Shown: positions 20,112 through 40,971, counted from the stretch's first letter. The stretch is 64,000 nucleotides of DNA from an uncultured bacterium (GCA_965371785.1 CBDUZS010000004.1:1963-65962); one strand, 5' to 3'. The notes: generated by a model from the sequence alone, not told the origin. Numbers and translations are program-made.

Positions 20112-21458
20112 TCAAAGATCTTTAGAAAGCCGATCGAGTTCAGAGATCGGGATTCCCAGTTCTCTGGCGGCTGATTCTCTGTCTCCCCGGTAGTACTCTA
20201 TCGTTCGAAGCACCTGCTCACTTACTACATCCGATAATTTTCTCGGCTCGAAGCTCGGTTCCAGGGCTCCAATCCTCTCGATAATGTAAGGAGACAGTGA
20301 TTCGATGGTTATCTGATCCGATTCCTCGTTAGCGACGGCTCCGGCGATGATAGTTTTCAACTCCTGTACGTTATCGGGGAAACCGTATCCTTTGAGAAGG
20401 CAGAGGAACTCCTCGGAGAAACCGGAAATATCGCGTTCGTTTCTCCTGATTTCCTCCTCGAGGAAATGCTGTGCGAGAAGCGGAATGTCCTCCACTCTCT
20501 CCCGGAGCGGAGGTATTCCAATCGAATTAACCATGAGATGGTAGAGGAGATCACGCGAAAAGGTGCTCTTGTATTCGGGTGCGGTCAGATCTACCGTCGA
20601 GGCAACGATGAAACGTATGTCAGCTTTTCTGATCCTAGTGGAACTCTCGCGATAGTACTCACCCGTCTGTATCACTCTCTTCAGCCTTACCTGTGCCGGA
20701 AGGGAAAGGGATTCGATGTTGTCGAGGAAAACCGTTCCATTTGCAGCCTCCTCCAGAATACCAGGAGTTTCCTCTCTTTCCCCGCTCCAGTCCTTCGCCT
20801 GACCGAAGAAAAAGGAACAGAAGTGCTCGGCATCCTGACTGTCGGCCTCTATTGCGATGAAGGGTTTACCGGCTCTGGTGCTGACCCTGTGTATGGCTCT
20901 TGCAAGTGCTTCCTTGCCGGTTCCATTCTCTCCCCAGATGAATACACTCAGATCACTGGAAGCCGTTCTCTCCGCCTGATGGAAGAGACGGATCATGGCT
21001 GGATCCTGTGTAGGGAACTGCTCGAACGCCGCCTGATGGGCCAGGTCCTCCCGCTTGAGCTGCCCGGAGAGACTATCTATCGTATCGATGAGGGCGCCAT
21101 GCTCGAGTGCGTTGTTCAGGACCTCCAGAAGATGGTCATCTTCCACCGGCTTGATGAGGTAGTCAAAGGCTCCCTGCTTCATCGCACGGACCGCAAGGTC
21201 GACATCGCTTACTCCGGTCAGAACCACAACTGGCGTGCCGATGCCCTTGCCGCGCATGTCACGGAGGATATCCATACCGCTCACGTTGGGCATATCCATG
21301 TCCAGCAAGATGATGTCATATTCTCCCTCAGCAAGGAGGTTGGCAACTTCGCGAGAATCGTTCACGATTGTGGAGTCGAAAAGACCTGTCTGCATGAGGA
21401 AGACCATGAAGTAGTTGGTTACGGCAACATCGTCGTCAACGATCATTATTCTCTTCAT
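20112..21458 (-). CDS. Sigma-54-dependent response regulator (REC + AAA+ sigma-54 interaction domain + HTH), NtrC family
   Basis: The start is ATG 21458 (MKRIMIVDDD) with GGGGAGGGG 7 nt upstream. The track's 21482 overlaps the kinase gene by 23 nt and is rejected. Motifs GENGTGKE (Walker A) and GAFDYLIKP. C-terminal HTH. Confidence 0.85.
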   Translation of the reverse strand: MKRIMIVDDDVAVTNYFMVFLMQTGLFDSTIVNDSREVANLLAEGEYDIILLDMDMPNVSGMDILRDMRGKGIGTPVVVLTGVSDVDLAVRAMKQGAFDYLIKPVEDDHLLEVLNNALEHGALIDTIDSLSGQLKREDLAHQAAFEQFPTQDPAMIRLFHQAERTASSDLSVFIWGENGTGKEALARAIHRVSTRAGKPFIAIEADSQDAEHFCSFFFGQAKDWSGEREETPGILEEAANGTVFLDNIESLSLPAQVRLKRVIQTGEYYRESSTRIRKADIRFIVASTVDLTAPEYKSTFSRDLLYHLMVNSIGIPPLRERVEDIPLLAQHFLEEEIRRNERDISGFSEEFLCLLKGYGFPDNVQELKTIIAGAVANEESDQITIESLSPYIIERIGALEPSFEPRKLSDVVSEQVLRTIEYYRGDRESAARELGIPISELDRLSKDL

Positions 21459-21459
21459 T

Positions 21460-23439
21460 TCACGCCCCTCCCCTGTTTCCATCGGTTGTCGGGATTCTGA
21501 TGGTAAAGGTCGTTCCCTCTCCCTGCTTGCTGGTCACAGTGATGTTTCCGTTGTGCTCCTCGATTATCCGGTAGGCTATCGCCAGGCCCAGCCCGGTACC
21601 CCCCCCTGCCCTTTTCGTAGTGAAGAATGGATCGAATATCTGCTTGAGTGTTTTCTCGTTCATGCCCTTGCCGTTATCCGATATCTCGATTACCACCACT
21701 CCGGGAGTCTCTAACCTCGTTCTAATGGTTATCACGCCCTTCCTGTCATCGGGAATCGCCTGCCCGGCATTCACCAGGAGGTTGATGAAAACCTGCTCGA
21801 TCTTCTGGGAATTTCCAGTGAACGAAGGAAGATTTTCTACGAGATCCAGTTCGATATCAGCCCTTTTGTGAATCTCGTTGTGTACAAGCCTGGTGCTGGC
21901 TTCTATAAGTGTGTTCACGTCGACGGTGTCGATAAGCAGTCCTTCATCCTTCCTGGCAAATCCCCTCAGTCCCTCGACGATTCCCTTGATCCGTTCCGAT
22001 CCATGGGCCATATCATCGACGAGCGTCATAATGTGCTGCCTGAAGAAATCGTACTTCAGCCTCGCAATTTTGAGATCCGGGTGGGTATCCCTGTACTCGT
22101 CCAGAATGGGAAGAATATCCTCTAGAGACTGTTTGATTATGTTGACGTTTCCCCTGATGAATTGATTCGGATTGTTTATCTCATGACCGATTCCGCTGAC
22201 GAGCTGACCCAGAGATGCCAGTTTGTCCGCCTGCTGAAGTTGTTGCTCATAGGTTTTCTCGAGGGTTACATCCCTGTAGAATTCAAGGATTCCATCAACT
22301 TCATGCTCGGTGTTGTACACTGGAAGCGCGTGAACCTGAAGGAATTTATCCTCGTTCTTCATCGTCAGTGTTATGGGTGTCTTATCCCTGATTATCCTTG
22401 ACAGGCGGCAGTCCTCACAGGGCACATCCCTGCCGAAATACGCTTTGTAGCAGCTGATTCCAGGTTTGATATCTTCCCGATTGGTCATGACGATCTTTCG
22501 ATTCTTGTCGATGAGCATCACATCGTCGGGAATGGCCTGAAAGGTCGTCTCCAGTCTGGATCTGGCTTCTTCCCAGCCCCTGTTGACCCTGTCCAGGTAG
22601 GAATTGACAATTCCGAGTTTCGCCCGCTGGGCTTCTACTTCCTCGGTTCTACCGGCTATCTCTTTCTTCAGCTCTTTCAGCCGCTGATTGTACTCGTCCT
22701 CTTCATCGATCTTGAGGGCCAGTCTCTCCCTGAGTTCCTTGCGTTCCAGAGCAAGGCTGAGCATCCGTCCGATCTCGTTGATCATCCGCTGTTCCTCGGG
22801 AAGCAGTTCATGGCTGTCGTCCAGGTAACCCACCCGGATCTCGCCTTCGATCTGCTGCCCAATCTCCAGCTCTACGGTAAGGTACTTACTGGAAGCAGGC
22901 TTCTGGCCGTACTCGATTCCCCGGAAACGGGACCACACTACGACCTCGTCGGGGATCATCATACCCGGGCCGATATATTTCGGCAGATCGGTGAAGAACC
23001 TGCGAATAGAATCGGATGTTTCAATCCATTTAGCTACCTCGTAAAGGCAGCCCAGTTCCTTGATTCGCTCTTCCTTCTCCCACTCGTCCTGTTTCCCGAG
23101 GGAACCTATCCGGTTGCCGAAGAAGAGAAAAATATCTCCACTCTCCGGACCGGCGTATCCGGCTTTCAGAGGTATCGATTTTGAGCTGTCAGACAGCGTG
23201 GAGAGCACAGCAATACCCCGTTCTCCAGCCTTTGCCTGAGCCATCGCCGAGCGGAACGTGTCAAGAGATGTCTGAGCAAGGAGTTCCTCGAGATTAGTCG
23301 TTTCTTCCGGAAGACCAGATGAACAGCAATCCCTTACAAGAGTATGGTTTGCATAAACAATCCGTTCTTCAGCATCGACAACGAGAAGGTAATCGAAGTT
23401 GCCTTCCAGGAAGGCGTACAGGCTCTCGAGTCTGACCAT
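21460..23439 (-). CDS. Cytoplasmic PAS-domain sensor histidine kinase
   Basis: HisKA H-box GHEINNP. HATPase_c motifs DNGKGM and GGTGLGLAIAYRII. Coiled-coil/PAS region. GGGGAAGGGAG RBS. Confidence 0.85.
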   Translation of the reverse strand: MVRLESLYAFLEGNFDYLLVVDAEERIVYANHTLVRDCCSSGLPEETTNLEELLAQTSLDTFRSAMAQAKAGERGIAVLSTLSDSSKSIPLKAGYAGPESGDIFLFFGNRIGSLGKQDEWEKEERIKELGCLYEVAKWIETSDSIRRFFTDLPKYIGPGMMIPDEVVVWSRFRGIEYGQKPASSKYLTVELEIGQQIEGEIRVGYLDDSHELLPEEQRMINEIGRMLSLALERKELRERLALKIDEEDEYNQRLKELKKEIAGRTEEVEAQRAKLGIVNSYLDRVNRGWEEARSRLETTFQAIPDDVMLIDKNRKIVMTNREDIKPGISCYKAYFGRDVPCEDCRLSRIIRDKTPITLTMKNEDKFLQVHALPVYNTEHEVDGILEFYRDVTLEKTYEQQLQQADKLASLGQLVSGIGHEINNPNQFIRGNVNIIKQSLEDILPILDEYRDTHPDLKIARLKYDFFRQHIMTLVDDMAHGSERIKGIVEGLRGFARKDEGLLIDTVDVNTLIEASTRLVHNEIHKRADIELDLVENLPSFTGNSQKIEQVFINLLVNAGQAIPDDRKGVITIRTRLETPGVVVIEISDNGKGMNEKTLKQIFDPFFTTKRAGGGTGLGLAIAYRIIEEHNGNITVTSKQGEGTTFTIRIPTTDGNRGGA

Positions 23440-23461: not shown

Positions 23462-26400
23462 TCAGTACCTGACTCTGAATCGCTCCGTACCGACTTCCCT
23501 TATCTCCTTCTTGTACTTTTCACCGTGGGTAAGGGGGGGCTGAATTGAAGCAGCCTTCAATCCGGTGACCGGAACCACAAGACTTCCAGGTCCGGAGTGC
23601 TTTCGTTCCTGGCCTGTGTTCCAGTAGTACATCACGAATTCCCCGAGGCCTCGAGAAACTGCATTGCTCATCTCGGTCGTGACATCATCTGAGACTTCGA
23701 GCCCGAGTTCTCTCGCAAGAATTGTCAGAACTTCTTTGCCTGAAAGACCGGATGGAGGTTCGACTGCTCGTGGAAAGCTGTTCACGCTGCCCTCGAAATT
23801 CAGCCGTGTTCCCCTTGTCTCGAGGAATGTCGAACCAGGAAGAACGACGTCCGCGTACTGCGTTGTCTCGGTGTCCGTCCAGTCAACTGCTGCCAGGAAT
23901 TCGACGTTGCTGAACCAGCCACCGGTCCGGCCCCAGGCCATCGGGTCTTCACCGATGATCAGGGCTGCCTTGATAACACCCTCATCCAGAACCCTCCTGA
24001 GTTCCTGATGGGTGGAAACTCCATTCCCTGAAACAACCGGAATCCTGCCTGGTCTGAAGGCCGGATCGGCACCGGTTGCCTCCAGAGCAGCACTGTTGCT
24101 GATAATCCTGGGAAGAAGCAGTTCGGTCCGGATACCGGCACCTCTGAGGAGCACGACGAAATTCGCCAGTGTTTCCATATCTCCCGGGGCACTGTCCTGT
24201 GGTCTATCCGGGCTGTGGATGAAAACGATTCTTCCGGCTGCGCGAATGATGTCTGCAGCAGCCCGAATGTTTTCCTCGTCTACTCCCGACATCGCAGAAG
24301 CACTTTCGGGAGTTACATTTCTTGATGCAAGGAATTCCTCTGCTCTCTGGAGAGATTCAGTCTTCAGGTATTCTTCATCGATCAGTACCTGCATGATTCC
24401 ATTCCAGAGAATCGAGCTGCGTCCCCGCATGGGATCAAGAGCGACCGTAGCAAGAAGTTGATCGGTGCTGTCGAGAGTGGAGTTGGATACGATCAGCTTG
24501 GCACCGGACTTGACTGCAGAAACAACATCCACCGCAAGCACGAGGTGATCGGTCTCCATGGCCGTGTTGTTGCAGATTATCAGGTCCGCTGCAGCCAGAC
24601 AGCTCCGGTCAGCAGTGGACGCCGTGAAGCCGAATGATGCATCGAGCATCCCGGCTTCTTTCCCGGTGCCGAGAATCGAAAGGGAGCCGATGTTGCCGGT
24701 TCCGATCCCCTCCCTCGCGATTCTACCAGCAAGGTAGAGCTCCTCGCACGTCAGCTCCGGGGAAACGAATACGGCAACACTCCCTGGGCCATGCATCCGA
24801 GCGACGTTCCCGAGGGAAGCAGCAATCAGCTCAGAAGCCTCGAGTACGTCCACCTGCCTTCGAGAGCTGCCGGTTCGGATTTCAGCGGATGAAATCCTTT
24901 TCTGCCTGATGAACAGTTCGTGCCCGAATCTTCCATACCTGCACAGGTACTCGCCGGGTACACCGGAATTCGAAATGTAGTATCTCTCTTCACCGAACTT
25001 CTTGACCTCGAAGGAGCAGGCAAGCGAACAGAATCCGCAGTGCGCCGATACACTCTCAGAGCACAATGCAGCCCTTCCGGGGAATGGATACTTTGCAGTG
25101 AGAGCACCCGTAGGACATGCATCTATGCAGTTTCCGCAACTGACACAGCTGGTCTCGACAAGCGGGTCCTTCATCGCCGGGCGCATCTCCGTCCTGAACC
25201 CTCTGCCAACCAGGCCGATAGCCGAGATCGGGAGGATTCGGGCACACGTTCTGATACATCTGGAACAGAGGATACATTTGTTGGGGTCGTACACCAGGTA
25301 CGGATGCCTCTCATCTACGCTGTGTTTCCTGACGTAGCCCTTGTACCTCTCCATGTCCACGCCGTATTCCTCGGCGTAGAGCCTCAGGTCGCAATCGTCG
25401 AACCTGATGCAGCCGCACGAAAGGCATCTGTCGCATTCGTGCACGTTATCCTCGTACTCGAACCCGGTTGAAACCTCCGTGAAATTACCCCTGCGATCAT
25501 CGACAGCAATCGTGTGCACTTCATGCCGTGGGCTTTCCTTCACATCACCCAGTTCCGTTTTTCCCGGTTTTACCCAGAATTCCTTCTTCACTACAAAGCT
25601 TCTCTGTGGGGGATCTTCCCCAATGAGGAAGGAGTGTACCGCATCAGCTGCCAGGTGGCCGTCCCTTATCGCGTCGATGACAACCGTGGGTCCGTCGTCA
25701 GCGGCATCACCACCTGCGAAAACCCCCTCCTGGTTCGTTTTCATCGTCATGGTGTCTACTACGTAGGTGTTCCATTTCGTCAGCTCGATATCGTTTCCGT
25801 CAATCTTCGTAAGACCGTCCAGAACAGTGTTCTGGCCAATCGCAGGTAGAGCTGTGTCACAGGGCAGATCGAACTCCGATCCCTCGAGCGGCACGGGGCG
25901 GCGCCTTCCGGAGTCATCGGGTGCACCAAGCTTCATCCTGATGCATCTGAGAGCCAGAAGTCTGCCGTTCTCCTCGATTATGCCTACGGGAGCCGCGAGT
26001 TCCATGATCTCAATGCCTTCCTCGAGACAATCAGCGATCTCCATCTCATCTGCAGGCATTTCAGCCTTGGTTCGCCTGTAGAGAACGATCACCTTTTCCG
26101 CTCCCAGTCTCCAGGCAGTTCTGGCGACGTCCATGGCAGTGTTTCCACCGCCTATCACCACGATCGTTCCCGTGACTGGTTCGCGGGTTACAGCCTTCTC
26201 GGTGAGGAAGTCGGCGCCTGTTACAATACCCTCTGTATCGAATTCCCCTTCCACCCGCATAGGTTTGCCCGTCCAGGCTCCGGCCGCGATGTACACGGCA
26301 TCATGCTTCTCCCGCAATTCGTCGAGAGTTACATCCCTGCCTACTCTTACACCGCAACTAATCCGGGCACCCGTTCGGCAGATGTACTCGACTTCGGCAT

Positions 26401-27136
26401 CGAGAACATCATCCGGCAGCCTGTACTCGGGGATACCGTATCTGAGCATTCCACCAGAACGCTCCATTGCTTCGTACAGAGAAACCCTGTGCCCCCTTCT
26501 GCCGAGGAACCAGGCAGCGGTAAGGCCTGATGGTCCTGCTCCCACAATGCCCACGGTTTTCCCGCTCGGGGGGGCACATTCCGGCATGCCATCGTAAGTG
26601 CCTGGAGCATCCGTGACGAACCTCTTCACCGCGTTGATGCCAACAGGACTGTCCACGTCCTCCCTTCGGCATACGACTTCACATTTTCTGACACACACCC
26701 GCCCGCATGACGCGGGAAACGGGTTGGACTCGCGTATGAGATCAACTGCCTTTCGGTACTCCCCCATCGCAGAGAGCGCGATGTAACCCTGGGCATCAAC
26801 GTTGGCGGGACAGCCCTCGAGGCAGGGAGACTGGCAATCAGCGTAATGGTTCGACAAAAGCAGCTCCAGTGCGGTTTTCCTTGAAGCCAGTACCCTTTCG
26901 TTCCGGGTCTCGATCTCCATCCCGGGGGCGATTCTGGTTGCACAGGCCGGAACGAGATTCCAGCGTCCTTTCACCTCGACCACGCATACGAAGCACGAGC
27001 CGTAGGGCTCCAGTTCCGGAGAGTGACAGAGCGTGGGAATTTCGTCGAGATCGTTTTCCCTTACCACCTCCAGAATCGTTTTTCCAGGAGCAGCCTCTAT
27101 ACCGGTTCCGTTGATCGTAAGTCTGATATTCTCCAT
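23462..27136 (-). CDS. NuoG/FdhA-like multi-domain Fe-S protein: N-terminal [2Fe-2S] + inserted GltD/NfnB-like NAD(P)H-FAD module + [4Fe-4S] + molybdopterin-oxidoreductase-like domain that lacks the catalytic Sec/Cys-His
   Basis: The start is ATG 27136 (MENIRLTING) with GGGAG RBS. The track's 27196 overlaps nuoF by 50 nt. Motifs HYADCQSPCLEGCP; GltD motifs VGIVGAGPSGL and VVIGGGNTAMDVA; CDRCLSCGCIRFDDC; CILCSRCIRTC; MopB Fe-S HCGFCSLACS..EYLCRYG. The region aligning to FdhF CCARV-U-HGP reads GSLSILGTGKE, which has no Sec or Cys. Confidence 0.7.
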   Translation of the reverse strand: MENIRLTINGTGIEAAPGKTILEVVRENDLDEIPTLCHSPELEPYGSCFVCVVEVKGRWNLVPACATRIAPGMEIETRNERVLASRKTALELLLSNHYADCQSPCLEGCPANVDAQGYIALSAMGEYRKAVDLIRESNPFPASCGRVCVRKCEVVCRREDVDSPVGINAVKRFVTDAPGTYDGMPECAPPSGKTVGIVGAGPSGLTAAWFLGRRGHRVSLYEAMERSGGMLRYGIPEYRLPDDVLDAEVEYICRTGARISCGVRVGRDVTLDELREKHDAVYIAAGAWTGKPMRVEGEFDTEGIVTGADFLTEKAVTREPVTGTIVVIGGGNTAMDVARTAWRLGAEKVIVLYRRTKAEMPADEMEIADCLEEGIEIMELAAPVGIIEENGRLLALRCIRMKLGAPDDSGRRRPVPLEGSEFDLPCDTALPAIGQNTVLDGLTKIDGNDIELTKWNTYVVDTMTMKTNQEGVFAGGDAADDGPTVVIDAIRDGHLAADAVHSFLIGEDPPQRSFVVKKEFWVKPGKTELGDVKESPRHEVHTIAVDDRRGNFTEVSTGFEYEDNVHECDRCLSCGCIRFDDCDLRLYAEEYGVDMERYKGYVRKHSVDERHPYLVYDPNKCILCSRCIRTCARILPISAIGLVGRGFRTEMRPAMKDPLVETSCVSCGNCIDACPTGALTAKYPFPGRAALCSESVSAHCGFCSLACSFEVKKFGEERYYISNSGVPGEYLCRYGRFGHELFIRQKRISSAEIRTGSSRRQVDVLEASELIAASLGNVARMHGPGSVAVFVSPELTCEELYLAGRIAREGIGTGNIGSLSILGTGKEAGMLDASFGFTASTADRSCLAAADLIICNNTAMETDHLVLAVDVVSAVKSGAKLIVSNSTLDSTDQLLATVALDPMRGRSSILWNGIMQVLIDEEYLKTESLQRAEEFLASRNVTPESASAMSGVDEENIRAAADIIRAAGRIVFIHSPDRPQDSAPGDMETLANFVVLLRGAGIRTELLLPRIISNSAALEATGADPAFRPGRIPVVSGNGVSTHQELRRVLDEGVIKAALIIGEDPMAWGRTGGWFSNVEFLAAVDWTDTETTQYADVVLPGSTFLETRGTRLNFEGSVNSFPRAVEPPSGLSGKEVLTILARELGLEVSDDVTTEMSNAVSRGLGEFVMYYWNTGQERKHSGPGSLVVPVTGLKAASIQPPLTHGEKYKKEIREVGTERFRVRY

Positions 27137-27146
27137 GGCCAGCTCC

Positions 27147-28925
27147 CTAGCTCTTATAGACTGCGTCGAAGTTGCAGCTGCTGATGCACTTGCCACACTT
27201 GACGCATTTCGAGTTGTCTACCGTATGCAGCCCCTTCGGTTCACCCTGAATCGCATCGACGGGGCAGGCTTTGGCACAAAGAGTGCAGCCGATGCATTTC
27301 GATCCATCGATATGGAATTCGACAAGAGCTGAACATACGCCTGCCGGGCAGCATCCATCGTTGATGTGCTGCTCGTACTCGGAAAGGTAGTAGCGAATAG
27401 TGGAGAGAGCGGGATTGGGAGCTGACTGACCAAGACCACAGAGGCTTGCCTCCATGATACTCTTCCCCAGCGTGCCGAGCTTCTCGATGTCATCAGGTTC
27501 ACCCTCGCCCTTTGTGATTCTCGTCAGGATCTCGAGCATCCTGAGGGTGCCGATTCTGCAGAACGTGCACTTCCCGCACGATTCGTTCTGGGTGAACTCC
27601 AGGAAGAACCTGGCGATTTCGACCATGCATATGGAATCGTCCATCACCACTAGCCCACCAGAGCCCATGATGGCTCCGGTTGCAGGTATCGATTCGAAAT
27701 CAACGGGCGTGTCGCCAAGGGAAGCGGGGATGCAGCCGCCGGATGGACCACCCATCTGCACGGCCTTGAACTCACGCCCCTCCTTGATTCCACCGCCGAT
27801 TTTGAAGACGAGATCGTTTATCGTCGTTCCCATGGGAACCTCTGCCAGCCCACCATGAATAACCTTGCCGGCAAGAGCGAAAACTTTTGTGCCCGTACTC
27901 TTCTCGGTTCCATACGAGGCATACGCCTTCGCACCGTTCATGAGAATCCAGGGCACGTTGGCATAAGTTTCGACGTTGTTGTTGTTCGTCGGCTTCCTCC
28001 AGAGCCCCTTCTCCGCGGGAAACGGAGGTCTGATTCTGGGCATGCCCCGCTGGCCTTCTATCGAAGCGAAGAGAGCCGTCTCCTCACCGCAGACGAACGC
28101 TCCCGCTCCCTGCTTTATCTTGAGGTCGAAGTCGAAGCCGGAACCGAGAATGTCTTTTCCCAGGTACCCTTTCTCCCTGGCGCTTTCGATTGCGATCGTC
28201 AGGCGCCTGATTGCCAGGGGATATTCCGCCCGGCAGTAGACGTACCCGTAGGTTGCACCTATGGCTTTTGCACAAACGATCATTCCCTCGAGCACCGAGT
28301 GCGGATCTCCCTCGAGGATGGACCGATCCATGAATGCGCCGGGATCACCCTCGTCGGCATTGCAGACCACGTACTTGACGTCCCCCTCGTTGCCGGCGGC
28401 AAAGGACCATTTAAGTCCCGTGGGGAATCCTGCGCCTCCTCTTCCCCTCAGCCCCGAATCCTTGATTATCTGGATGATCTCGTCAGTAGACAGCTCCAGA
28501 AGAGCTTTACGGATGCCCTGATATCCTCCAGAGGACTCGTATTCGTCTATGGACTCGGGATCAATTGTACCGCAGTTCCTGAGAACGATCCTGCTCTGGA
28601 GGTCGAGAAAACCCTTCTCCGAGCCGTAGGTCGACCCGTCGGGAGAGATGCCGTACACAACGCTCGCGGTCAGCTCCTGACCATCAACAACGTGGCATCT
28701 GAATATCTCCTCTGCCAGGTCTGGAGTTGCTTCGCCGTAGACTACACGGGCGTCACCCTCTCGAACCTCGAGCAGGGGCTCTTTGTAACACATGCCTATG
28801 CAGCCCGTACTGGAGAGTTCGAAGGTTCCCGGATTCTCATCCGAGAGTTCCGTAAGTTTATCGTAGGTTGCCCTCGCGCCGGCTGACAAACCGCAAGTTC
28901 CCATTCCGATAATGATTTTCTTCAT
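27147..28925 (-). CDS. NuoF/HoxF/HydB-like NAD(H)-binding FMN flavoprotein with N-terminal thioredoxin-like [2Fe-2S] and C-terminal 2x[4Fe-4S]
   Basis: GRGGAGFPTGLKW motif. N-terminal IIGMGTCGLSAGA. C-terminal CIGCTLCAKACP and CVKCGKCISSC. Confidence 0.85.
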   Translation of the reverse strand: MKKIIIGMGTCGLSAGARATYDKLTELSDENPGTFELSSTGCIGMCYKEPLLEVREGDARVVYGEATPDLAEEIFRCHVVDGQELTASVVYGISPDGSTYGSEKGFLDLQSRIVLRNCGTIDPESIDEYESSGGYQGIRKALLELSTDEIIQIIKDSGLRGRGGAGFPTGLKWSFAAGNEGDVKYVVCNADEGDPGAFMDRSILEGDPHSVLEGMIVCAKAIGATYGYVYCRAEYPLAIRRLTIAIESAREKGYLGKDILGSGFDFDLKIKQGAGAFVCGEETALFASIEGQRGMPRIRPPFPAEKGLWRKPTNNNNVETYANVPWILMNGAKAYASYGTEKSTGTKVFALAGKVIHGGLAEVPMGTTINDLVFKIGGGIKEGREFKAVQMGGPSGGCIPASLGDTPVDFESIPATGAIMGSGGLVVMDDSICMVEIARFFLEFTQNESCGKCTFCRIGTLRMLEILTRITKGEGEPDDIEKLGTLGKSIMEASLCGLGQSAPNPALSTIRYYLSEYEQHINDGCCPAGVCSALVEFHIDGSKCIGCTLCAKACPVDAIQGEPKGLHTVDNSKCVKCGKCISSCNFDAVYKS

Positions 28926-29248
28926 GGAAGATCTCCCGACCTCTCCTCTGCCCTTTTGTACTCCCTGAGAAGTTTTCTGAGAATTGCGGGAGTCAATCTG
29001 CCATGGGTGTCATCGTTGACCATTATGACGGGGGCGAGAGAACAGCAGCCTATGCAGGCAACCGTGAACAGCGTGAAGAGGCCATCCTCAGTGGTTCCAC
29101 CGACTTCGATACCCAGTTCATCCTCTATGGTCTCGATTATCATCTTTGAATCTGAAACGTGGCATGCTGTTCCGGCGCACGCTCTGATCAGGTTCTTGCC
29201 CATGGGCTGGAGTCTGAACTGGCTGTAGAAAGTAATGACGCCGTACAC
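28922..29248 (-). CDS. NuoE/HoxE-like thioredoxin-fold [2Fe-2S] subunit; N-terminus unresolved (no canonical start upstream)
   Basis: VYGVITFYSQF ... CAGTACHV ... CIGCCSLAPV. Homology continues ~80 codons upstream (ELIPLLQSAQDHFGYVP) to a stop at 29458-29460. No ATG/GTG/TTG lies in that stretch. Confidence 0.65.
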   Translation of the reverse strand: MYGVITFYSQFRLQPMGKNLIRACAGTACHVSDSKMIIETIEDELGIEVGGTTEDGLFTLFTVACIGCCSLAPVIMVNDDTHGRLTPAILRKLLREYKRAEERSGDLP

Positions 29249-29529
29249 TTCGGATTCAGGAATTCCAGTGACACCGGAAATGTAGCCAATCGCTCTCCGG
29301 GGGACGTAACCGAAATGATCCTGTGCGGACTGCAGTAATGGGATCAGCTCACCCGGAGCACCGTCGTATCGCCAGAGACGGTAACTGAAATTCTCCTGCT
29401 TGACAGCCGTGGTTTCCTCTCCCTTCTCCAGCTTTCGACGGGCTGGATCATCCTCTATCCGTTACGTTCCGACCGGTCATGGCAGACGGGTCGAAACCAT
29501 CGCATTTCAGGTTGGGTTTACCGGGAGGC

Positions 29530-30522
29530 TCAGTCCTCCATCAGCTTGATGACCCTTGCTTCGCGTACGCGGAGAACGCCATCGATCTGGTTCAGTTTCT
29601 CGATAATCCTGGGTGTACGACCCACTGCGCCATGCCCGGTTATCATGCCTACGAGTTTCGAGCCATTCTCGATAACATCGCAGAAGAGAACTCCTTCGAT
29701 GAAGAAGACCGTCGTGAAGATCGTCTGGATTGCGTCCTTGTCGATATCGACGATTATGTAGCTTGTCGTTCCCGGCTGCTTCAGAGCGCTTGCCCTGGCA
29801 CTTCTCTTTACCGCTTTCTCGTACACATCGATGAACTCGTTTACATCCCTGTCCAGTTTCGGTCTTTCTATCTGCGACAGGGAGGACACTTCGATGCCAT
29901 CCATGGCAGCGATTCGAGCGAACAGCTCCTTTATCTCATCCTGGGAGGATGCCTGGGCAAGGATGATGATATCGAAGTCACCTCTGACCGCCTCGCAGGT
30001 CTGGATACCATCCATCATGTAGAGATCGGTGAATATCTCCATGCTCCGGTCGGTATCCGTGATACGTATGGTGAGGTACGCACTGACCGATTCGCGTATT
30101 GCAGGTTCATCCGCCGATGTGCCATCCCTGCTCTCGACACCGGTTGTGCCCGGTGAGAGTTCATCGAGGGCACTCACCAGCTCGGATATCTCGAACGGTT
30201 TGTCGAGGTACCCGGTGTTGTGCTCGGAAAGCGCGGTAGCCATCAATCTTTCATCACCGAATCCCGTTATCACCAGCACTGGAAGATCCGGATACTGGTT
30301 CTTAATGACCTTGAGGATCTTCAGCCCGTCGATATCCGGCATGAAGATGTCGGTTACGAGGTAATCGTAGGTTACGCCCTCTTTCCTTGCCCTGTTGAGC
30401 TCGTGGATTGCCGAGATGCCATCGGGACAGGCAACTGCTGTGTAATCCTCCTGAGTGAGACCGATGGTGAGATTCCGCCTGATCTCGGCCTCGTCATCGA
30501 TAATCAGTACTCGGCCTTTCAA
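29530..30522 (-). CDS. Response regulator: receiver domain plus two C-terminal ACT-like domains
   Basis: VLIIDDE, DYLVTDIFMPDIDG and LVITGFG receiver motifs. Two C-terminal beta-alpha-beta-beta-alpha-beta repeats (YLTIRITD.. and YIIVDIDK..). No DNA-binding domain is evident. Confidence 0.6.
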   Translation of the reverse strand: MKGRVLIIDDEAEIRRNLTIGLTQEDYTAVACPDGISAIHELNRARKEGVTYDYLVTDIFMPDIDGLKILKVIKNQYPDLPVLVITGFGDERLMATALSEHNTGYLDKPFEISELVSALDELSPGTTGVESRDGTSADEPAIRESVSAYLTIRITDTDRSMEIFTDLYMMDGIQTCEAVRGDFDIIILAQASSQDEIKELFARIAAMDGIEVSSLSQIERPKLDRDVNEFIDVYEKAVKRSARASALKQPGTTSYIIVDIDKDAIQTIFTTVFFIEGVLFCDVIENGSKLVGMITGHGAVGRTPRIIEKLNQIDGVLRVREARVIKLMED

Positions 30523-30618: not shown

Positions 30619-32085
30619 CTACTGGTGTACGGCATCGGTAACATCCATTGCTTCTGCCAGATTGCTCCATCTTCCCGTATTCAGAAAGATGTTCATGGCT
30701 TTCGCAGCCGTTCGCCCATGACCCATTGCCAGGATCACCGTGGCTGCTCCAAGGACTATGTCTCCTCCCGCAAACACTCCTCTTACGGATGTCTGTCCGG
30801 TTTCCTCGTTAATGATAATCCCGCCCCACCTCGTAACCTCCAGCTCGGGGAATACACTGGGGACAAGAGGGTTGGGGCTGTTGCCGATTGCGACCAGAAC
30901 CGCATCCGTTTCGAGAATGTACTCGGAGCCCTCAATGGGAATCGGTCTTCTCCTGCCGGAGGAATCCGGTTCACCGAGTTCCATTCGAATGACTTCCATG
31001 CTCTTGACCCAGCCTGAGTCATCACCGATGAGCCGAACAGGATTGTTCAGGAGGTGGAACTCGATGCCCTCTTCCCGGGCATGGTGGATCTCCTCGAGCC
31101 TTGCAGGCATCTGTTCCTCCGCCCTCCTGTACACGATCAGCGAATGCTCTGCTCCAAGCCTGAGAGCTGTTCTGGCGCAGTCCATCGCCACGTTGCCGCC
31201 ACCGACGGTTACTACCTTTTTCGCTCGGAAGATGGGAGTGTCAGCGCGTGGAAACTCGTAAGCCTTCATGAGGTTCGCCCTGGTGAGGTACTCGTTGGCG
31301 GAGTACACTCCGAGAAGGTTCTCTCCAGGGACCTTCATGAACCTCGGAAGGCCCGCTCCCGTTGCGATGAAAACGGAATCGAATTGATCGATGAACACAT
31401 CCATCGGCGTTGTCATGCCTACAACGAAGTTGTACCTGAATTTGACACCGAGGCTCTCGAGGTAGTCGACTTCCTTCTGCACAATGGCCTTGGGAAGCCT
31501 GAACTCCGGGATGCCGTACACCAGCACGCCGCCAGCCTTGTGGAGAGCCTCGAAAACGGTAACCTCGTGACCGTTCTTCACGAGATCTCCCGCAACGGTC
31601 AGACCCGCAGGACCCGAACCGACAACCGCCACTGTCCTGCCGGTAGGTTTTGCCGGCTCGGGCAGCTCGAATCTGTTCTGCTCCCTTTCCCAGTCGGCGA
31701 GAAATCTTTCCAGTTTTCCTATCATCACCGAATCGCAGGGATTCTTTCTAGCCTTTCCGACCGTGCAGGTAAGCTGGCACTGTTCCTCCTGGGGGCAAAC
31801 TCTACCGCAAACTGCCGGCAGCAGATTCCCGTCCTTGAGGATGCGGACACCCTTCTGGAAGTCTCCCTCTTCGATCGCTCCGATGAACCCCGGGATGTCG
31901 ATCCTTACCGGGCAGCCATCGACACAGAACGGAATCTTGCATTGAAGGCACCTCTTTGCCTCCTGTATCGCCATTTCAGGGGTGTAGCCGAGAGGCACTT
32001 CCTTTACATTCTTCACCCTGTCCTCTGGAGCCTGTTCCGGCATGTCTACGGGTGGAATTGCGAGCCTTTCCTTTGCGCTCAGCAT
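30619..32085 (-). CDS. nfnB: NfnB / GltD-family NADPH-dependent FAD oxidoreductase subunit (NADH-dependent reduced ferredoxin:NADP+ oxidoreductase large subunit-like)
   Basis: CLQC..CVDGCP and CGRVCP Fe-S motifs. VAVVGSGPAGL and VTVGGGNVAMD dinucleotide motifs. The start overlaps nfnA by 7 nt. Confidence 0.75.
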   Translation of the reverse strand: MLSAKERLAIPPVDMPEQAPEDRVKNVKEVPLGYTPEMAIQEAKRCLQCKIPFCVDGCPVRIDIPGFIGAIEEGDFQKGVRILKDGNLLPAVCGRVCPQEEQCQLTCTVGKARKNPCDSVMIGKLERFLADWEREQNRFELPEPAKPTGRTVAVVGSGPAGLTVAGDLVKNGHEVTVFEALHKAGGVLVYGIPEFRLPKAIVQKEVDYLESLGVKFRYNFVVGMTTPMDVFIDQFDSVFIATGAGLPRFMKVPGENLLGVYSANEYLTRANLMKAYEFPRADTPIFRAKKVVTVGGGNVAMDCARTALRLGAEHSLIVYRRAEEQMPARLEEIHHAREEGIEFHLLNNPVRLIGDDSGWVKSMEVIRMELGEPDSSGRRRPIPIEGSEYILETDAVLVAIGNSPNPLVPSVFPELEVTRWGGIIINEETGQTSVRGVFAGGDIVLGAATVILAMGHGRTAAKAMNIFLNTGRWSNLAEAMDVTDAVHQ

Positions 32086-32939
32086 CCCTGATCACCTCCC
32101 TCGTTACACTTGCAGCCGCTTCGCGAGTAGTGATCCATGGCCTGTGATTCATGCTCGATGTATGAACTGAGCCTCAGTGTAAGCTCGTCGAAATCGACTC
32201 CGTGTCCGTCGAATTCAGGGCCGTCTACGCATGCGAATTTCGTCTCGCCGTTGACCGTGACGCGGCAGCAGCCGCACATGCCGGTACCGTCTATCATTAT
32301 CGGGTTCAGGCTCACTACCGTAGGGATACCGAGCTCCTTGGTGAGCAGACTTACGAATTTCATCATAACCGGGGGACCTATGGCAAACACCTGATGAATC
32401 TTCTCGCCCCGGTCCGAGACCATCTGGATTGCATCCGTGACAAGCCCCTTCATTCCGTAGCTTCCATCATCAGTGGTGATAATCACTTCGTCGCTGACAC
32501 CAGTCATCTCCTCTTCGAGGATAAGGAGATTCCGGGAACGGGCGCCGAGAATGCTGATAATCCTGTTGCCTGCCTCCTTGAGAGCCTTCGTTATCGGGTA
32601 CAGGGGAGCGTTGCCGATACCGCCTCCCACGCACAGAACGGTACCTACCTTCTCGATATGTGTTGCTTTGCCCAGAGGTCCGGTAACATCGGGTATGGAA
32701 TCACCCTCTTCGAGCCTGGACATCTGAACGGTGCTCTTCCCGACAGCCTGCACTACGAGCGTTATCGTTCCCTCATCGGGATCCGAATCAGCGATGGTGA
32801 GCGGGATTCGTTCCCCTTCTTCACATATTCTCACGATAACGAACTGACCCGGTTTTCTGTACCTGGCGACTTCAGGCGCGGTTATCCTGTACCTGTGGAT
32901 ATCCGGTCCGAGTATTTCCTTGGATACGATCACATGCAT
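32079..32939 (-). CDS. nfnA: NfnA / SudB-like FAD + [2Fe-2S] subunit (PyrK-like fold)
   Basis: The start is ATG 32939 (MHVIVSKE) with GGAGGTG RBS. The track's 32957 is rejected. Motifs CVGGGIGNAPL and CGCCRVTVNGETKFACVDGPEF. Confidence 0.75.
   Translation of the reverse strand: MHVIVSKEILGPDIHRYRITAPEVARYRKPGQFVIVRICEEGERIPLTIADSDPDEGTITLVVQAVGKSTVQMSRLEEGDSIPDVTGPLGKATHIEKVGTVLCVGGGIGNAPLYPITKALKEAGNRIISILGARSRNLLILEEEMTGVSDEVIITTDDGSYGMKGLVTDAIQMVSDRGEKIHQVFAIGPPVMMKFVSLLTKELGIPTVVSLNPIMIDGTGMCGCCRVTVNGETKFACVDGPEFDGHGVDFDELTLRLSSYIEHESQAMDHYSRSGCKCNEGGDQGC

Positions 32940-39618: not shown

Positions 39619-40971
<1,353 letters not shown>

What the first reader, a model, noticed from the sequence alone, without database searches (positions are those of the whole stretch)
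23462..29460. Stn/Nfn-like NuoE-NuoF-(GltD-NuoG) module with a catalytically dead molybdopterin domain
nuoE-like, nuoF-like and a third gene sit in operon-like order, separated by 4-nt and 10-nt junctions. The third gene carries a [2Fe-2S] NuoG/Fdh N-terminus, a full GltD NAD(P)H module and a formate-dehydrogenase-like MopB domain. Where FdhF has CCARV-U-H, this protein reads SLSIL-G-T, so both the Sec/Cys ligand and the catalytic His are absent. That points to an electron-bifurcating NADH/NADPH/ferredoxin transhydrogenase of the Sporomusa Stn type that has kept a degenerate Fdh-like domain as scaffold. It is not a formate dehydrogenase. The histidine kinase and sigma-54 activator immediately downstream on the same strand may regulate it.
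Basis: partly seen in the sequence, partly recalled or inferred. Interest (0 to 1): 0.65.

Follow-up and report, generated by a model that had tools for sequence, protein, structure and literature searches.

The report
Stn/NfnABC-type electron-bifurcating transhydrogenase operon
These three genes encode an ordinary member of the already solved Stn/NfnABC family of enzymes that shuttle electrons between NADPH, NADH and ferredoxin, and its "dead" formate-dehydrogenase-like domain is a documented family trait, not a new discovery.

Summary
Three minus-strand genes sit in operon order. They are nuoE-like (stop at 28922), nuoF-like (27147-28925) and a 1224-aa fusion (23462-27136), joined by an ATGA overlap and a 10-nt gap. 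The fusion carries [2Fe-2S], a GltD-like FAD/NADPH module, Fe-S clusters and an FDH-like domain.

All three proteins have the solved transhydrogenases as best PDB matches: S. ovata StnABC (8OH5) and C. saccharolyticus NfnABC (9BOV), with E-values from 1e-45 to 1e-245. Every cluster-binding Cys is conserved, and so is the family-specific Lys ligand (K171).

The FDH-like domain keeps the MopB fold (pLDDT 86, TM about 0.8). It has lost three things:
- the Cys/Sec-His pair (SLSILGT where FdsA has TCARVCH);
- the RGQNNVQG motif;
- the whole pterin-dinucleotide-binding domain IV.

Related GltD-FDH fusions retain all three, so these tests can detect an intact site.

The Stn and NfnABC papers already describe this domain as inactive and, for Stn, as needed for tetramer assembly.

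What is specific to this lineage (relatives named Fermentibacteria, Krumholzibacteriota, Eisenbacteria) is a conserved flanking cassette. A REC-RAM response regulator lies upstream in 33/33 loci. A Cys-rich PAS kinase (27/31) and an NtrC-like regulator (21/27) lie downstream.

The ATG at 29460 is out of frame, and nuoE has no canonical start codon.

The parts
28922..29428 (-). nfnC/stnA (NuoE-like, BfuC): thioredoxin-like [2Fe-2S] subunit. The start is uncertain (ACG 29407 or CTG 29428). No canonical start codon exists.
   Evidence: Pfam 2Fe-2S_thioredx scores E=1e-48 over residues 20-158 of the 168-aa translation. Best PDB matches are NfnC 9n5u_C (3e-48), StnA 8oh5_A (5e-45) and NfnC 9bov_C (9e-45).
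27147..28925 (-). nfnB/stnB (NuoF/HydB-like, BfuB): FMN/NAD(H) subunit. [quoted passage not shown]
   Evidence: Pfam hits are Complex1_51K, NADH_4Fe-4S, Fer4 x2 and a weak SLBB. The best PDB match is StnB 8oh5_B at E=1e-245. Identity to StnB is 60.7%, and 24/24 StnB Cys are conserved.
23462..27136 (-). nfnA/stnC (BfuA): a 1224-aa fusion of an N-terminal [2Fe-2S] domain, a GltD/NfnL-like FAD/NADPH module, NuoG-type Fe-S clusters and an FDH-like domain.
   Evidence: Pfam architecture is. Best PDB matches are Csac NfnA 9bov_A (3e-229) and StnC 8oh5_C (2e-206). Identity is 41% over 844-906 aligned residues.
25442..26848 (-). GltD/NfnL-like insert (residues 97-565). It carries H97-x3-C101-x3-C105-x3-C109-P, then C144/C148/C152/C156, K171, the FAD motif GxGxxG, the NADPH motif GxGxxA and R239.
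   Evidence: Alignment to StnC and Csac NfnA is. These residues are invariant in 121/121 clade members. The A7 cluster ligands Cys108/147/151 + Lys170 of Csac NfnA (PMC11829005) correspond to C109/C148/C152/K171 here.
23462..25069 (-). FDH/NuoG-like MopB domain (residues 690-1224) without a catalytic site. It keeps the [4Fe-4S] motif C700/C703/C707/C732.
   Evidence: The AlphaFold model has pLDDT 85.7 and pTM 0.89. Foldseek gives TM 0.73-0.82 to FDH structures, Csac NfnA and StnC. There is no Molydop_binding hit. The NuoG model TIGR01973 is covered to position 598 of 606 by residue 1135.
24665..24685 (-). Residues 818-824, SLSILGT: the position of the FDH active-site motif TCARV-[C/U]-H. The Cys/Sec position is G823 and the His position is T824.
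   Evidence: HMMER alignments to FdsA 6tg9_A and 9wxb_B. None of 121 close homologues has Cys-His here. Sixteen FDH-like representatives have a C-H pair here, most as CAR[LV]CH.
29530..30522 (-). Orphan response regulator: a REC domain plus two predicted beta-alpha-beta-beta-alpha-beta (Lrp/AsnC RAM-like) modules and no DNA-binding domain. It is a lineage-specific companion of the operon.
   Evidence: Pfam hits are Response_reg (2e-25) and AsnC_trans_reg (1e-5). D9, D10, D58, T86 and K108 are invariant. It lies directly upstream of nuoE in 33/33 assessable related genomes and in 0/14 distant Stn-type loci.
21460..23439 (-). PAS-containing histidine kinase with four invariant Cys (C131, C330, C341, C344; C-x10-C-x2-C inside PAS_4).
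   Evidence: Pfam hits are HATPase_c and PAS_4. It lies downstream of nfnA in 27/31 assessable loci. The Cys and the H-box His419 are invariant in 29/29.
20112..21482 (-). NtrC-family response regulator (REC + AAA+ Sigma54_activat + lid/HTH) with DWSGER in place of the GAFTGA loop.
   Evidence: Pfam. Present in 21/27 assessable loci. The loop reads x-W-S-G-x-R in most of the 29 related loci.
30619..32957 (-). Neighbouring NfnSL/NfnAB-type pair: small subunit 32079-32957 and large GltD-type subunit 30619-32085. It is not a constant part of the cassette.
   Evidence: NCBIfam NF004862 scores 416 bits (cutoff 220) and TIGR01316 scores 629 bits (cutoff 472). The pair lies directly upstream of the response regulator in only 5/28 related loci.

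Best explanation
The locus encodes a heterotrimeric Nfn-Bfu (Stn/NfnABC-type) flavin-based electron-bifurcating transhydrogenase.

Mechanism, inferred by homology to the solved enzymes:
1. NADPH is oxidised at the FAD of the GltD-like module of the 1224-aa subunit.
2. Electrons pass one at a time through the Lys-ligated [4Fe-4S] cluster (C109/C148/C152/K171) and the NuoG-type cluster chain to the NuoF/NuoE-like core.
3. At the core, FMN and its neighbouring clusters split them between NAD+ (downhill) and ferredoxin (uphill, at the C-terminal 2x[4Fe-4S] domain of the NuoF-like subunit).
4. The reaction is reversible: 2 NADPH + NAD+ + 2 Fd(ox) <-> 2 NADP+ + NADH + 2 Fd(red).

The C-terminal formate-dehydrogenase-like domain keeps the MopB fold and its [4Fe-4S] cluster but cannot bind or use a Mo/W-pterin. 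By analogy with StnC, it is a structural module needed to assemble the tetramer of heterotrimers.

Shown here: homology, domain order, ligand conservation, and loss of the FDH catalytic determinants. Inferred: substrates, bifurcation, oligomeric state and the scaffold role.

In this lineage the operon is embedded in a conserved two-component cassette: a REC-RAM regulator upstream, and a Cys-rich PAS kinase plus an NtrC-like regulator downstream. This cassette most likely controls the operon, by a route that was not identified.
For: - PDB sequence searches. The third protein matches Csac NfnA 9bov_A (E=3e-229) and StnC 8oh5_C (E=2e-206) from residue 3 onward. The NuoF-like protein matches StnB (1e-245), Csac NfnB (5e-236) and archaeal NfnB (6e-236), all ahead of the HydB hydrogenase subunits. 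The NuoE-like protein matches NfnC/StnA best.
- Ligands. The 26 Cys of the window protein that align with Cys in both StnC and Csac NfnA are all present and invariant in 121 clade homologues. The motifs HxxxCxxxCxxxCP and CxxCxCx5C (Kremp 2020, PMC7483475) are present. K171 (StnC K170, described as strictly conserved in PMC10482914) and R239 are conserved. 24/24 StnB Cys are conserved.
- Dead FDH domain. SLSILGT aligns with TCARVCH. RIISNSAA aligns with RGQNNVQG. There is no Molydop_binding domain, and the Molybdopterin score is only 52 bits. Intact GltD-FDH fusions P0198 and P0262 score 250-272 bits, carry an 87-bit Molydop_binding domain and have CAR[LV]CH.
- Fold. The MopB fold is retained. 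The domain is less conserved than the rest of the protein but still constrained: 60% mean identity against 74-84%.
- Literature. The FDH domain of StnC is inactive. Deleting it, or mutating the Cys ligands of its clusters, abolished assembly (PMC10482914). Purified Stn showed no formate:MV activity (PMC7483475). The pterin site is incomplete and shows no pterin density in Csac NfnA (PMC11829005).
- Context. No other molybdopterin gene was found among the picked ORFs of the window. The window also encodes 2-oxoacid:ferredoxin oxidoreductase subunits, a glutamate dehydrogenase and HdrA/MvhD-type genes, which fits a ferredoxin-based anaerobe.
Against: - No biochemical data exist for this protein or any close relative (66% identity or more). 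Identity to the characterised enzymes is 41% for the large subunit and only about 20% within the FDH-like domain.
- StnC Cys114, whose mutation halves activity, is Ala115 here. An extra invariant Cys144 is present where both solved enzymes have Ile, so the environment of the FAD-proximal clusters may differ.
- The nuoE-like gene lacks a canonical start codon. That raises the possibility of low or regulated expression of one essential subunit.
- A classical NfnSL-type pair lies next door. That would make two enzymes with nominally the same activity.
- Homologous complexes were first assigned other activities, for example NADPH:sulfur oxidoreductase (Nso) in Thermococcus litoralis.
Confidence: 0.85

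Rival explanations
1. It is a genuine NAD(P)-linked formate dehydrogenase, as JGI annotation names this cluster ('formate dehydrogenase major subunit'). The MopB domain would oxidise formate and the NuoEF-like subunits would act as a diaphorase.
For: Public names for the exact protein cluster and for many homologues say so. The predicted fold matches FDH structures with TM 0.74-0.82. NCBIfam Fdh-alpha gives E=2e-45, though far below its cutoff (155 against 666 bits). GltD-FDH fusions with an intact site do exist elsewhere.
Against: The Cys/Sec position is Gly and the His position is Thr. No Cys-His dipeptide, and no Cys after residue 855, exists in the domain. The ORF is uninterrupted, so there is no in-frame TGA for Sec. 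The RGQNNVQG motif is lost. Domain IV (Molydop_binding) is absent. The solved homologues contain no pterin and Stn has no formate activity (PMC11829005, PMC7483475).
Confidence: 0.02
2. The same three-subunit complex has a different physiological reaction. It could be a non-bifurcating NADPH:NAD+ or NAD(P)H:ferredoxin oxidoreductase. Alternatively it could be an NADPH-dependent reductase of sulfur/polysulfide or Fe(III), as once proposed for NsoABC and SfrAB. In that case the neighbouring NfnSL-type pair would be the real transhydrogenase.
For: A bona fide NfnSL-type pair lies immediately upstream. Thermococcaceae carry either Nfn-Bfu or NfnAB but not both (PMC9304861). There are differences at the FAD-proximal clusters: A115 and C144. 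The FDH-like branch clusters of the solved enzymes are of unknown function, possibly an 'overflow electron pool' (PMC11829005).
Against: The features that separate bifurcating Bfu cores from non-bifurcating NuoEF-type modules are all present with all Cys conserved. [quoted passage not shown] The T. sibiricus homologue, of the same type as Nso, was shown to be a true Nfn (PMC9304861). The NfnSL pair is adjacent in only 5/28 related genomes.
Confidence: 0.09
3. The FDH-like domain is not a mere scaffold. It would have a new ligand-binding, regulatory or catalytic role specific to this lineage, for example as the docking site for the REC-RAM protein or for another redox partner through the side-branch clusters.
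For: The domain is under purifying selection (about 60% identity across the clade) with lineage-invariant residues, including C855. The REC-RAM protein is co-located in 33/33 loci and has no DNA-binding domain.
Against: There is no direct evidence. A structural role explains the conservation equally well. The tail (residues 1136-1224) is the least conserved part at 50% identity. The structure model of the REC-RAM protein was too poor to test docking.
Confidence: 0.04

Closest known systems
Sporomusa ovata StnABC (PDB 8OH5/8OH9; Kremp 2020 PMC7483475; Kumar 2023 PMC10482914)
   Same: - Same gene order: nuoE-like, nuoF-like, GltD-NuoG fusion.
- Same domain architecture and length class (1172 against 1224 aa).
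- All cluster Cys, K170/K171 and R239 are conserved.
- The FDH-like domain lacks the active site.
- The StnB homologue is 60.7% identical with 24/24 Cys conserved.
   Different: - The large subunit is only 41% identical.
- StnC Cys114 is Ala here, and an extra invariant Cys144 replaces Ile143.
- The host is an uncultured lineage whose closest named relatives are Fermentibacteria, Krumholzibacteriota and Eisenbacteria, not a Firmicute acetogen.
- The operon is flanked by REC-RAM, kinase and NtrC-like genes that are absent from 14 Firmicute/Spirochaete Stn-type loci. In S. ovata the stn genes lie between metVF and pabAB.
Caldicellulosiruptor saccharolyticus NfnABC (PDB 9BOV/9BP5; PMC11829005)
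   Same: It is the best-scoring solved relative of the large subunit (E=3e-229). The A7 cluster ligands Cys108/147/151 + Lys170 are conserved as C109/C148/C152/K171. The Fdh/NuoG-like domain has an incomplete pterin site and a dead-end cluster branch.
   Different: Identity is about 41% overall and about 22% in the FDH-like domain. Whether the N-terminal site of the B subunit holds Zn (as in Csac) or [2Fe-2S] (as in S. ovata) cannot be told from sequence.
Archaeal Nfn-Bfu (PDB 9N5U; PMC12018979; T. sibiricus enzyme in PMC9304861) and T. litoralis NsoABC
   Same: The same BfuBC core and the same GltD-type NADPH module are present. NfnC 9n5u_C is the best PDB hit of the NuoE-like protein.
   Different: The archaeal NfnA is 963 aa and matches only residues 2-737 of the window protein. 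The archaeal homologues NsoC and T. sibiricus NfnA are predicted to have only a partial C-terminal domain lacking the Cys for one cluster (PMC10482914). The window protein has the full-length bacterial form.
NfnSL / NfnAB (T. maritima 4YLF, P. furiosus 5JCA)
   Same: The overall reaction is the same (NADPH, NAD+, ferredoxin). The GltD-like module of the window protein matches NfnB/NfnL at E=1e-82 to 1e-84.
   Different: NfnSL is a two-subunit enzyme in which the FAD of the large subunit is itself the bifurcating site. In Stn/NfnABC that FAD is non-bifurcating and bifurcation occurs at the FMN core (PMC10482914). A separate NfnSL-type pair sits next to this operon.
NAD+-dependent formate dehydrogenase FdsABG (R. 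capsulatus 6TG9) and E. coli FdhH
   Same: The MopB fold of the C-terminal domain is shared (TM 0.74-0.80), as are the N-terminal [4Fe-4S] motif and NuoEF-type partner subunits.
   Different: The window protein has no Cys/Sec-His, no RGQNNVQG motif, no domain IV and no evidence of pterin. It has an inserted GltD module. Its B subunit has the extra N- and C-terminal cluster domains that FdsB lacks (PMC9304861).
Complex I NuoEFG and bifurcating [FeFe]-hydrogenase HydABC
   Same: The NuoE/NuoF-like core is homologous. NuoG likewise carries a cofactor-less MopB-derived domain, and the NuoG model TIGR01973 is covered to position 598 of 606. HydB/HydC are close relatives of the B and C subunits.
   Different: There are no membrane-arm genes, no H-cluster domain and no quinone module. 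The third substrate site is the GltD-type FAD/NADPH module.

Membership tests
Nfn-Bfu / Stn (NfnABC) transhydrogenase | Three adjacent genes: NuoE-like (BfuC), NuoF/HydB-like (BfuB), and a BfuA with a GltD/NfnL-type module fused into a NuoG-like protein | tested here: met
   ORFs, junctions and Pfam architecture. The best solved relatives of all three proteins are Stn/NfnABC subunits.
Nfn-Bfu / Stn (NfnABC) transhydrogenase | BfuB domain set (FMN-binding 51K domain, SLBB, NuoF 4Fe-4S domain, ferredoxin-type 4Fe-4S domain) plus an N-terminal thioredoxin-like domain. These extra sites are absent from non-bifurcating homologues (PMC9304861). | tested here: met
   Pfam scores: Complex1_51K 1.7e-46, NADH_4Fe-4S 7e-31, Fer4/Fer4_21 at residues 538-588, SLBB weak at E=0.009. 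The alignment to StnB starts at residue 3 and includes the N-terminal domain. 24/24 StnB Cys are conserved.
Nfn-Bfu / Stn (NfnABC) transhydrogenase | BfuC with the thioredoxin-like [2Fe-2S] domain (cluster A1/C1, essential for bifurcation in Stn) | tested here: met
   Pfam 2Fe-2S_thioredx at E=1e-48. The motifs CAGTACH and CIGCCSLAP align with those of StnA and NfnC. Caveat: the gene has no canonical start codon.
Nfn-Bfu / Stn (NfnABC) transhydrogenase | BfuA motifs HxxxCxxxCxxxCP and CxxCxCx5C, produced by insertion of GltD into the NuoG-like protein (PMC7483475) | tested here: met
   H97/C101/C105/C109-P and C571/C574/C576/C582 are present and invariant in 121/121 homologues.
Nfn-Bfu / Stn (NfnABC) transhydrogenase | FAD-proximal [4Fe-4S] ligated by three Cys and one Lys (StnC K170, 'strictly conserved'; Csac Cys108/147/151 + Lys170) | tested here: met
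   C109, C148, C152 and K171 are aligned and invariant in 121/121. The accessory Cys114 is not conserved (A115), which the Stn paper also reports for some homologues.
Nfn-Bfu / Stn (NfnABC) transhydrogenase | FAD (GxGxxG) and NADP(H) (GxGxxA) sites, and the Arg equivalent to StnC R239 | tested here: met
   GAGPSG, GGGNTA, YRRT and PEYR(239)L are aligned identically or near-identically with StnC and Csac NfnA.
Nfn-Bfu / Stn (NfnABC) transhydrogenase | C-terminal FDH/NuoG-like domain with its [4Fe-4S] cluster but without pterin or a catalytic site | tested here: met
   C700/C703/C707/C732 are conserved. The catalytic determinants are absent. The MopB fold is predicted with pLDDT 85.7.
Nfn-Bfu / Stn (NfnABC) transhydrogenase | Tightly coupled NADPH:NAD+/ferredoxin oxidoreductase activity, and a tetramer of heterotrimers | not testable with these tools
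   This requires purified protein, activity assays, and mass photometry or cryo-EM.
Mo/W-bis-PGD formate dehydrogenase (FdhF/FdsA type) | Metal-ligating Cys or Sec followed by the catalytic His (CAR[VL]-[C/U]-H) | tested here: not met
   G823-T824 align with C-H of FdsA. 0/121 close homologues have C-H there. Sixteen FDH-like representatives do, which shows the test works.
Mo/W-bis-PGD formate dehydrogenase (FdhF/FdsA type) | Conserved active-site motif P-L-R-G-Q-N-N-V-Q-G (it contains the catalytic Arg; identification of that Arg is from my own knowledge of FdhH Arg333) | tested here: not met
   The window reads L-P-R-I-I-S-N-S-A-A. Only the Arg remains. 14 of 16 intact FDH-like sequences have RGQNNVQG.
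Mo/W-bis-PGD formate dehydrogenase (FdhF/FdsA type) | C-terminal molybdopterin-dinucleotide-binding domain IV (Pfam PF01568) | tested here: not met
   There is no PF01568 hit at E<=0.01. The intact fusions P0198 and P0262 score 87 bits. The last residues of the domain that align to FDH or NfnA chains are about 1140-1143, roughly 80 residues from the end, whereas FdsA has about 215 more residues after that point.
Mo/W-bis-PGD formate dehydrogenase (FdhF/FdsA type) | N-terminal [4Fe-4S] motif of MopB enzymes | tested here: met
   C700-x2-C703-x3-C707...C732 aligns with the FDH and StnC Cys. This feature is shared with the inactive family members and does not discriminate.
Sigma-54-dependent control by the adjacent bEBP-type regulator | GAFTGA loop in the AAA+ domain, and a -24/-12 (TGGCAC-N5-TTGC) promoter upstream of the regulated operon | tested here: not met
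   The loop reads DWSGER, and x-W-S-G-x-R in most of 29 loci. Window-wide matches to the consensus are at chance level (26 observed against 22.9 expected). There is no enrichment upstream of the response-regulator gene or of nuoE in 38-41 loci compared with shuffles. F-to-W and T-to-S are conservative changes, so loss of sigma-54 contact is not proven.

The most novel reading that the evidence does not exclude
In this lineage, whose named relatives are Fermentibacteria, Krumholzibacteriota and Eisenbacteria, the Nfn-Bfu transhydrogenase may be the output of a dedicated redox-sensing two-component circuit that has not been described for any electron-bifurcating enzyme.

The circuit would work as follows. 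A PAS kinase with an invariant C-x10-C-x2-C (+C131) motif senses redox state. It phosphorylates two partners. One is an NtrC-like regulator with a W-S-G variant of the GAFTGA loop. The other is a highly conserved REC-(RAM)2 protein with no DNA-binding domain, which could act directly on the enzyme complex or on the regulator.

The non-canonical start of nuoE and the Cys144/Ala115 ligand pattern might be further layers of tuning.
Probability: 0.3. Interest if true: 0.45.

Novelty: new member of a known kind. Interest (0 to 1): 0.22.

Why it matters
There are three practical points.

- Annotation. The exact protein and many of its homologues are named 'formate dehydrogenase major subunit' or 'YjgC' in public metagenome annotation. 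That would wrongly credit uncultured anaerobes with formate metabolism. The correct reading is a pyridine-nucleotide/ferredoxin redox balancer.
- Phyletic range. The Stn and Bfu papers list Firmicutes, Synergistetes, Euryarchaeota and Bacteroidetes. The family is evidently abundant in this group of candidate phyla as well: the search scored its maximum of 8000 candidates, and 7969 of them matched.
- Regulation. The tightly conserved regulatory cassette around the operon gives a testable entry point to how bifurcating transhydrogenases are controlled. Essentially nothing about this appears in the papers consulted.

The 'dead domain' itself adds nothing beyond the published structures.

Tried and rejected
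- Sigma-54 promoter search. The TGGCAC-N5-TTGCW scan of the window gave matches at chance level. A core-anchored scan of the intergenic regions upstream of the response-regulator gene and of nuoE in 38-41 related loci showed no enrichment over shuffles. The sigma-70/terminator scan of 19.9-33.2 kb was also at or below chance. No promoter could be assigned.
- AlphaFold model of the REC-RAM protein. Confidence was low (pLDDT 56, pTM 0.43), so no fold search was run on it. Only the secondary-structure pattern is used.
- NCBIfam. It holds no Stn/NfnA-specific model. All hits to the large subunit fall below their cutoffs.
- Source organism. The exact proteins are on an NCBI contig of 72,384 bp, but no name was returned. 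The nearest species representatives are 74% identical or less over the full length, and up to 78% for partial matches. They are unnamed, or labelled Fermentibacteria, Krumholzibacteriota, Eisenbacteria or Aegiribacteria, with a few inconsistent MAG labels.
- Frameshift between the ATG at 29460 and the nuoE frame. I found no slippery sequence by eye and no support from relatives, so I rejected it in favour of non-canonical initiation.
- Glutamate synthase reading (NCBIfam PRK12814, 616 bits against a cutoff of 916). Rejected, because no large-subunit (GltB) gene was found among the window's picked ORFs.

Full report
**What is in the sequence**

All genes between 20.1 and 33.0 kb lie on the minus strand.
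- The nuoF-like ORF runs 28925 to 27147 (592 aa). Its ATG overlaps the TGA of the nuoE-like frame as ATGA.
- Ten bases after the nuoF TAG, following a GGAG, comes the ATG at 27136 of a 1224-aa ORF that ends at 23462.
- Pfam on this protein finds Fer2_4, Fer4_20, Pyr_redox_2, Fer4_Nqo3 and a weak Molybdopterin match (52.5 bits). There is no Molydop_binding domain.
- The nuoF-like protein has Complex1_51K, NADH_4Fe-4S and a C-terminal 2x[4Fe-4S] domain. The nuoE-like frame carries a full 2Fe-2S_thioredx domain.
- A PAS histidine kinase (23439 to 21460) and an NtrC-type regulator (21482 to 20112) follow on the same strand.

The ATG at 29460 is one base out of frame with the nuoE-like reading frame.

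**Identity of the system**

Sequence searches against all solved structures put the characterised Nfn-Bfu enzymes first for every subunit.

| Window protein | Best solved matches |
|---|---|
| Large subunit | C. saccharolyticus NfnA 9BOV (3e-229), S. ovata StnC 8OH5 (2e-206), archaeal NfnA 9N5U (2e-166) |
| NuoF-like | StnB (1e-245), then the two NfnB chains, all ahead of the hydrogenase HydB chains |
| NuoE-like | NfnC and StnA |

- Identity to StnC and NfnA is 41% over 844-906 aligned residues. Every Cys of the window protein that aligns with a Cys in both solved proteins is present (26 positions).
- Those 26 positions are all invariant in 121 close homologues. They include the [2Fe-2S] Cys, the HxxxCxxxCxxxCP and CxxCxCx5C motifs, two ferredoxin-type clusters and the MopB-type cluster.
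- Lys171 is invariant. It corresponds to StnC Lys170 and Csac Lys170, the unusual fourth ligand of the FAD-proximal cluster (PMC10482914, PMC11829005).
- The NuoF-like protein is 60.7% identical to StnB with 24 of 24 Cys conserved. [quoted passage not shown]

**The 'dead' domain**

- HMMER aligns residues 818-824 (SLSILGT) with TCARVCH of the R. capsulatus and a related FdsA structure. The metal-ligand position is Gly823 and the catalytic His position is Thr824.
- The domain (690-1224) has no Cys after residue 855 and no Cys-His dipeptide anywhere. The ORF is uninterrupted, so no Sec codon is possible.
- I aligned the domain with 93 diverse representatives from a 1.8-billion-protein library. 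Sixteen FDH-like sequences carry a C-H pair at this spot, most as CAR[LV]CH, and 14 of the 16 carry RGQNNVQG further on. All proteins of about 1200 aa with the StnC/NfnA length lack the C-H pair. The window protein reads RIISNSAA at the second motif.
- Two database proteins (P0198 and P0262, about 1380 aa) have the same N-terminal architecture but an intact FDH part. They score 250-272 bits for Molybdopterin, 87 bits for Molydop_binding, and have CAR[LV]CH. This is an internal positive control, and a plausible picture of the ancestor.
- An AlphaFold model of the window domain is confident (pLDDT 85.7, pTM 0.89). It matches FDH structures, Csac NfnA and StnC with TM 0.73-0.82 at only 19-24% identity.
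- Within the clade the domain is the fastest-evolving part (60% mean identity against 74-84%) but is clearly constrained.

These results reproduce what the structure papers already say.
- StnC's FdhF domain 'is catalytically inactive', and its deletion or cluster-ligand mutation prevents assembly (PMC10482914).
- Csac NfnA has an incomplete pterin site, no pterin density and a dead-end cluster branch (PMC11829005).
- Purified Stn has no formate activity (PMC7483475).

**Second refutation criterion**

I picked 49 non-overlapping ORFs of 90 aa or more from the window. Pfam scans covered all but two short ones. None carries a molybdopterin-oxidoreductase domain except this protein. Four syntenic loci show none within 10 kb either.

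**Mechanism**

The mechanism is inferred by homology. NADPH reduces the FAD of the GltD-like module. Electrons pass through the Lys-ligated cluster and the NuoG-type chain to the FMN core of the B/C subunits. There they are bifurcated to NAD+ and to ferredoxin at the C-terminal clusters of the B subunit. The reaction is reversible.

The window also encodes 2-oxoacid:ferredoxin oxidoreductase subunits, succinyl-CoA synthetase, fumarase, a glutamate dehydrogenase and several HdrA/MvhD-type genes. That fits a ferredoxin-based anaerobe that needs to balance its NADH, NADPH and ferredoxin pools.

**What differs from the characterised enzymes**

1. Ligand pattern. StnC Cys114, whose C114A mutant keeps 50% activity, is Ala115 here. 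It is Ala, Val, Ile or Thr in 120 of 121 clade members. An additional Cys144 is invariant in the clade where both solved proteins have Ile. That position is Cys in canonical NfnL/GltD proteins, for example PAVCGRVCP in the window's own NfnL-type gene.
2. Flanking genes. In 47 species-representative genomes with a large subunit at least 58% identical, the following were found:

| Flanking gene | Position | Loci with it / assessable |
|---|---|---|
| REC + two RAM-like-module response regulator | directly upstream of nuoE | 33/33 |
| Histidine kinase | downstream of nfnA | 27/31 |
| NtrC-like regulator | downstream of nfnA | 21/27 |
| Any of the three | 14 Firmicute/Spirochaete Stn-type loci | 0/14 |

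3. The REC-RAM protein is about 75% identical across the clade and has an intact phospho-acceptor pocket. The kinase has four invariant Cys. The regulator has DWSGER in place of GAFTGA. No -24/-12 promoter could be found.
4. A classical NfnSL-type pair lies immediately upstream, but in only 5 of 28 related loci.

**The nuoE start**

- The in-frame stretch upstream of the conserved domain holds no ATG, GTG or TTG. Of 48 loci, only the window and its 98% relative L001 lack a canonical start there.
- Relatives start at an ATG (L006) or GTG (L004) that corresponds to GAA 29413-29411 here.
- The purine-rich GGAGAAGGGAGAGG just upstream is conserved.
- Against L002, all eight substitutions in the 35 codons after ACG 29407 are synonymous, so the region is translated.
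- ACG 29407 or CTG 29428 is the likely initiator.

**Verdict**

The operon is a new, uncharacterised member of a family that already has biochemistry and three cryo-EM structures. Its inactive FDH-like domain is a known family hallmark. Interest is low to moderate. The residual novelty lies in the lineage-specific regulatory cassette and in small ligand and start-codon peculiarities.

Noticed in passing
window 29249-29470 (minus strand), upstream part of the nuoE-like gene: The nuoE-like gene has no ATG, GTG or TTG upstream of its conserved domain. Of 48 related loci, only the window and its near-identical relative L001 lack one. The codon that is ATG or GTG in relatives is GAA (29413-29411) here. 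The upstream region is under purifying selection (8/8 synonymous changes against L002). Initiation is probably at ACG 29407, behind a conserved GGAGAAGGGAGAGG, or at CTG 29428.
   Followed up: partly
window 29530-30522 (minus strand): An orphan response regulator made of a REC domain plus two predicted RAM/ACT-like beta-alpha-beta-beta-alpha-beta modules, with no DNA-binding domain. It is about 75% identical across the clade, which is more conserved than the enzyme's large subunit. It is always directly upstream of nuoE (33/33 loci). Its function is unknown, and the AlphaFold model was poor (pLDDT 56).
   Followed up: partly
window 20112-21482 (minus strand), residues about 228-236: The NtrC-family AAA+ regulator has DWSGER where bacterial enhancer-binding proteins have GAFTGA. 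The x-W-S-G-x-R pattern holds in most of 29 related loci. No sigma-54 -24/-12 consensus was found upstream of the operon in the window or in about 40 related loci.
   Followed up: partly
window 21460-23439 (minus strand): The histidine kinase has four Cys invariant in 29/29 homologues: C131, plus C330-x10-C341-x2-C344 inside the PAS_4 domain. This suggests a metal or Fe-S (redox) sensing site.
   Followed up: partly
window 30619-32957 (minus strand): A classical NfnSL/NfnAB-type pair (NCBIfam TIGR01316 and NF004862, both above cutoff) lies immediately upstream of the Nfn-Bfu cassette. One genome therefore carries both kinds of transhydrogenase side by side. Thermococcaceae are reported to carry one or the other (PMC9304861). 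The adjacency occurs in only 5/28 related loci.
   Followed up: partly
window residues 115 and 144 of the 1224-aa protein (DNA about 26792-26794 and 26705-26707): The clade shows a different pattern near the FAD-proximal clusters. StnC and Csac Cys114 is Ala (or Val/Ile/Thr) here, and Ile143 is an invariant Cys144. Cys144 is the canonical GltD/NfnL Cys position. The consequence for cluster ligation or potential is unknown.
   Followed up: partly
database proteins P0198 (1373 aa) and P0262 (1387 aa), not in the window: These proteins have the same [2Fe-2S]-GltD-FeS architecture but an intact FDH part (CAR[LV]CH, RGQNNVQG, Molydop_binding). They are candidate NADPH-linked formate dehydrogenases and plausible ancestors of the inactive StnC/NfnA domain.
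   Followed up: partly
window 1066-16859 (+) and 57392-62596 (+): The window is unusually rich in HdrA-like flavoproteins, MvhD/FlpD genes (5074-5499, 8585-9004, 60337-60804) and an HdrB-like CCG protein (60801-61955). [quoted passage not shown] These indicate other flavin-based electron-transfer or bifurcation systems.
   Followed up: no
window 33091-36303 (+), 36403-39384 (-), 41505-43862 (-): There are three paralogous large proteins with a PPDK_N (PEP-utilising, ATP-binding) domain. Two of them have a weak N-terminal REC-like match. A homologue also sits near the cassette in L001, L006 and L017, and a glutamate dehydrogenase (39619-40971) recurs nearby in L002, L006 and L029.
   Followed up: no
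public annotation of the exact protein cluster: Members of this protein's 90% cluster and many homologues are named 'formate dehydrogenase major subunit' or 'YjgC' by JGI, and 'FAD-dependent oxidoreductase' by NCBI. NCBIfam has no model for StnC/NfnA that reaches its cutoff.
   Followed up: yes
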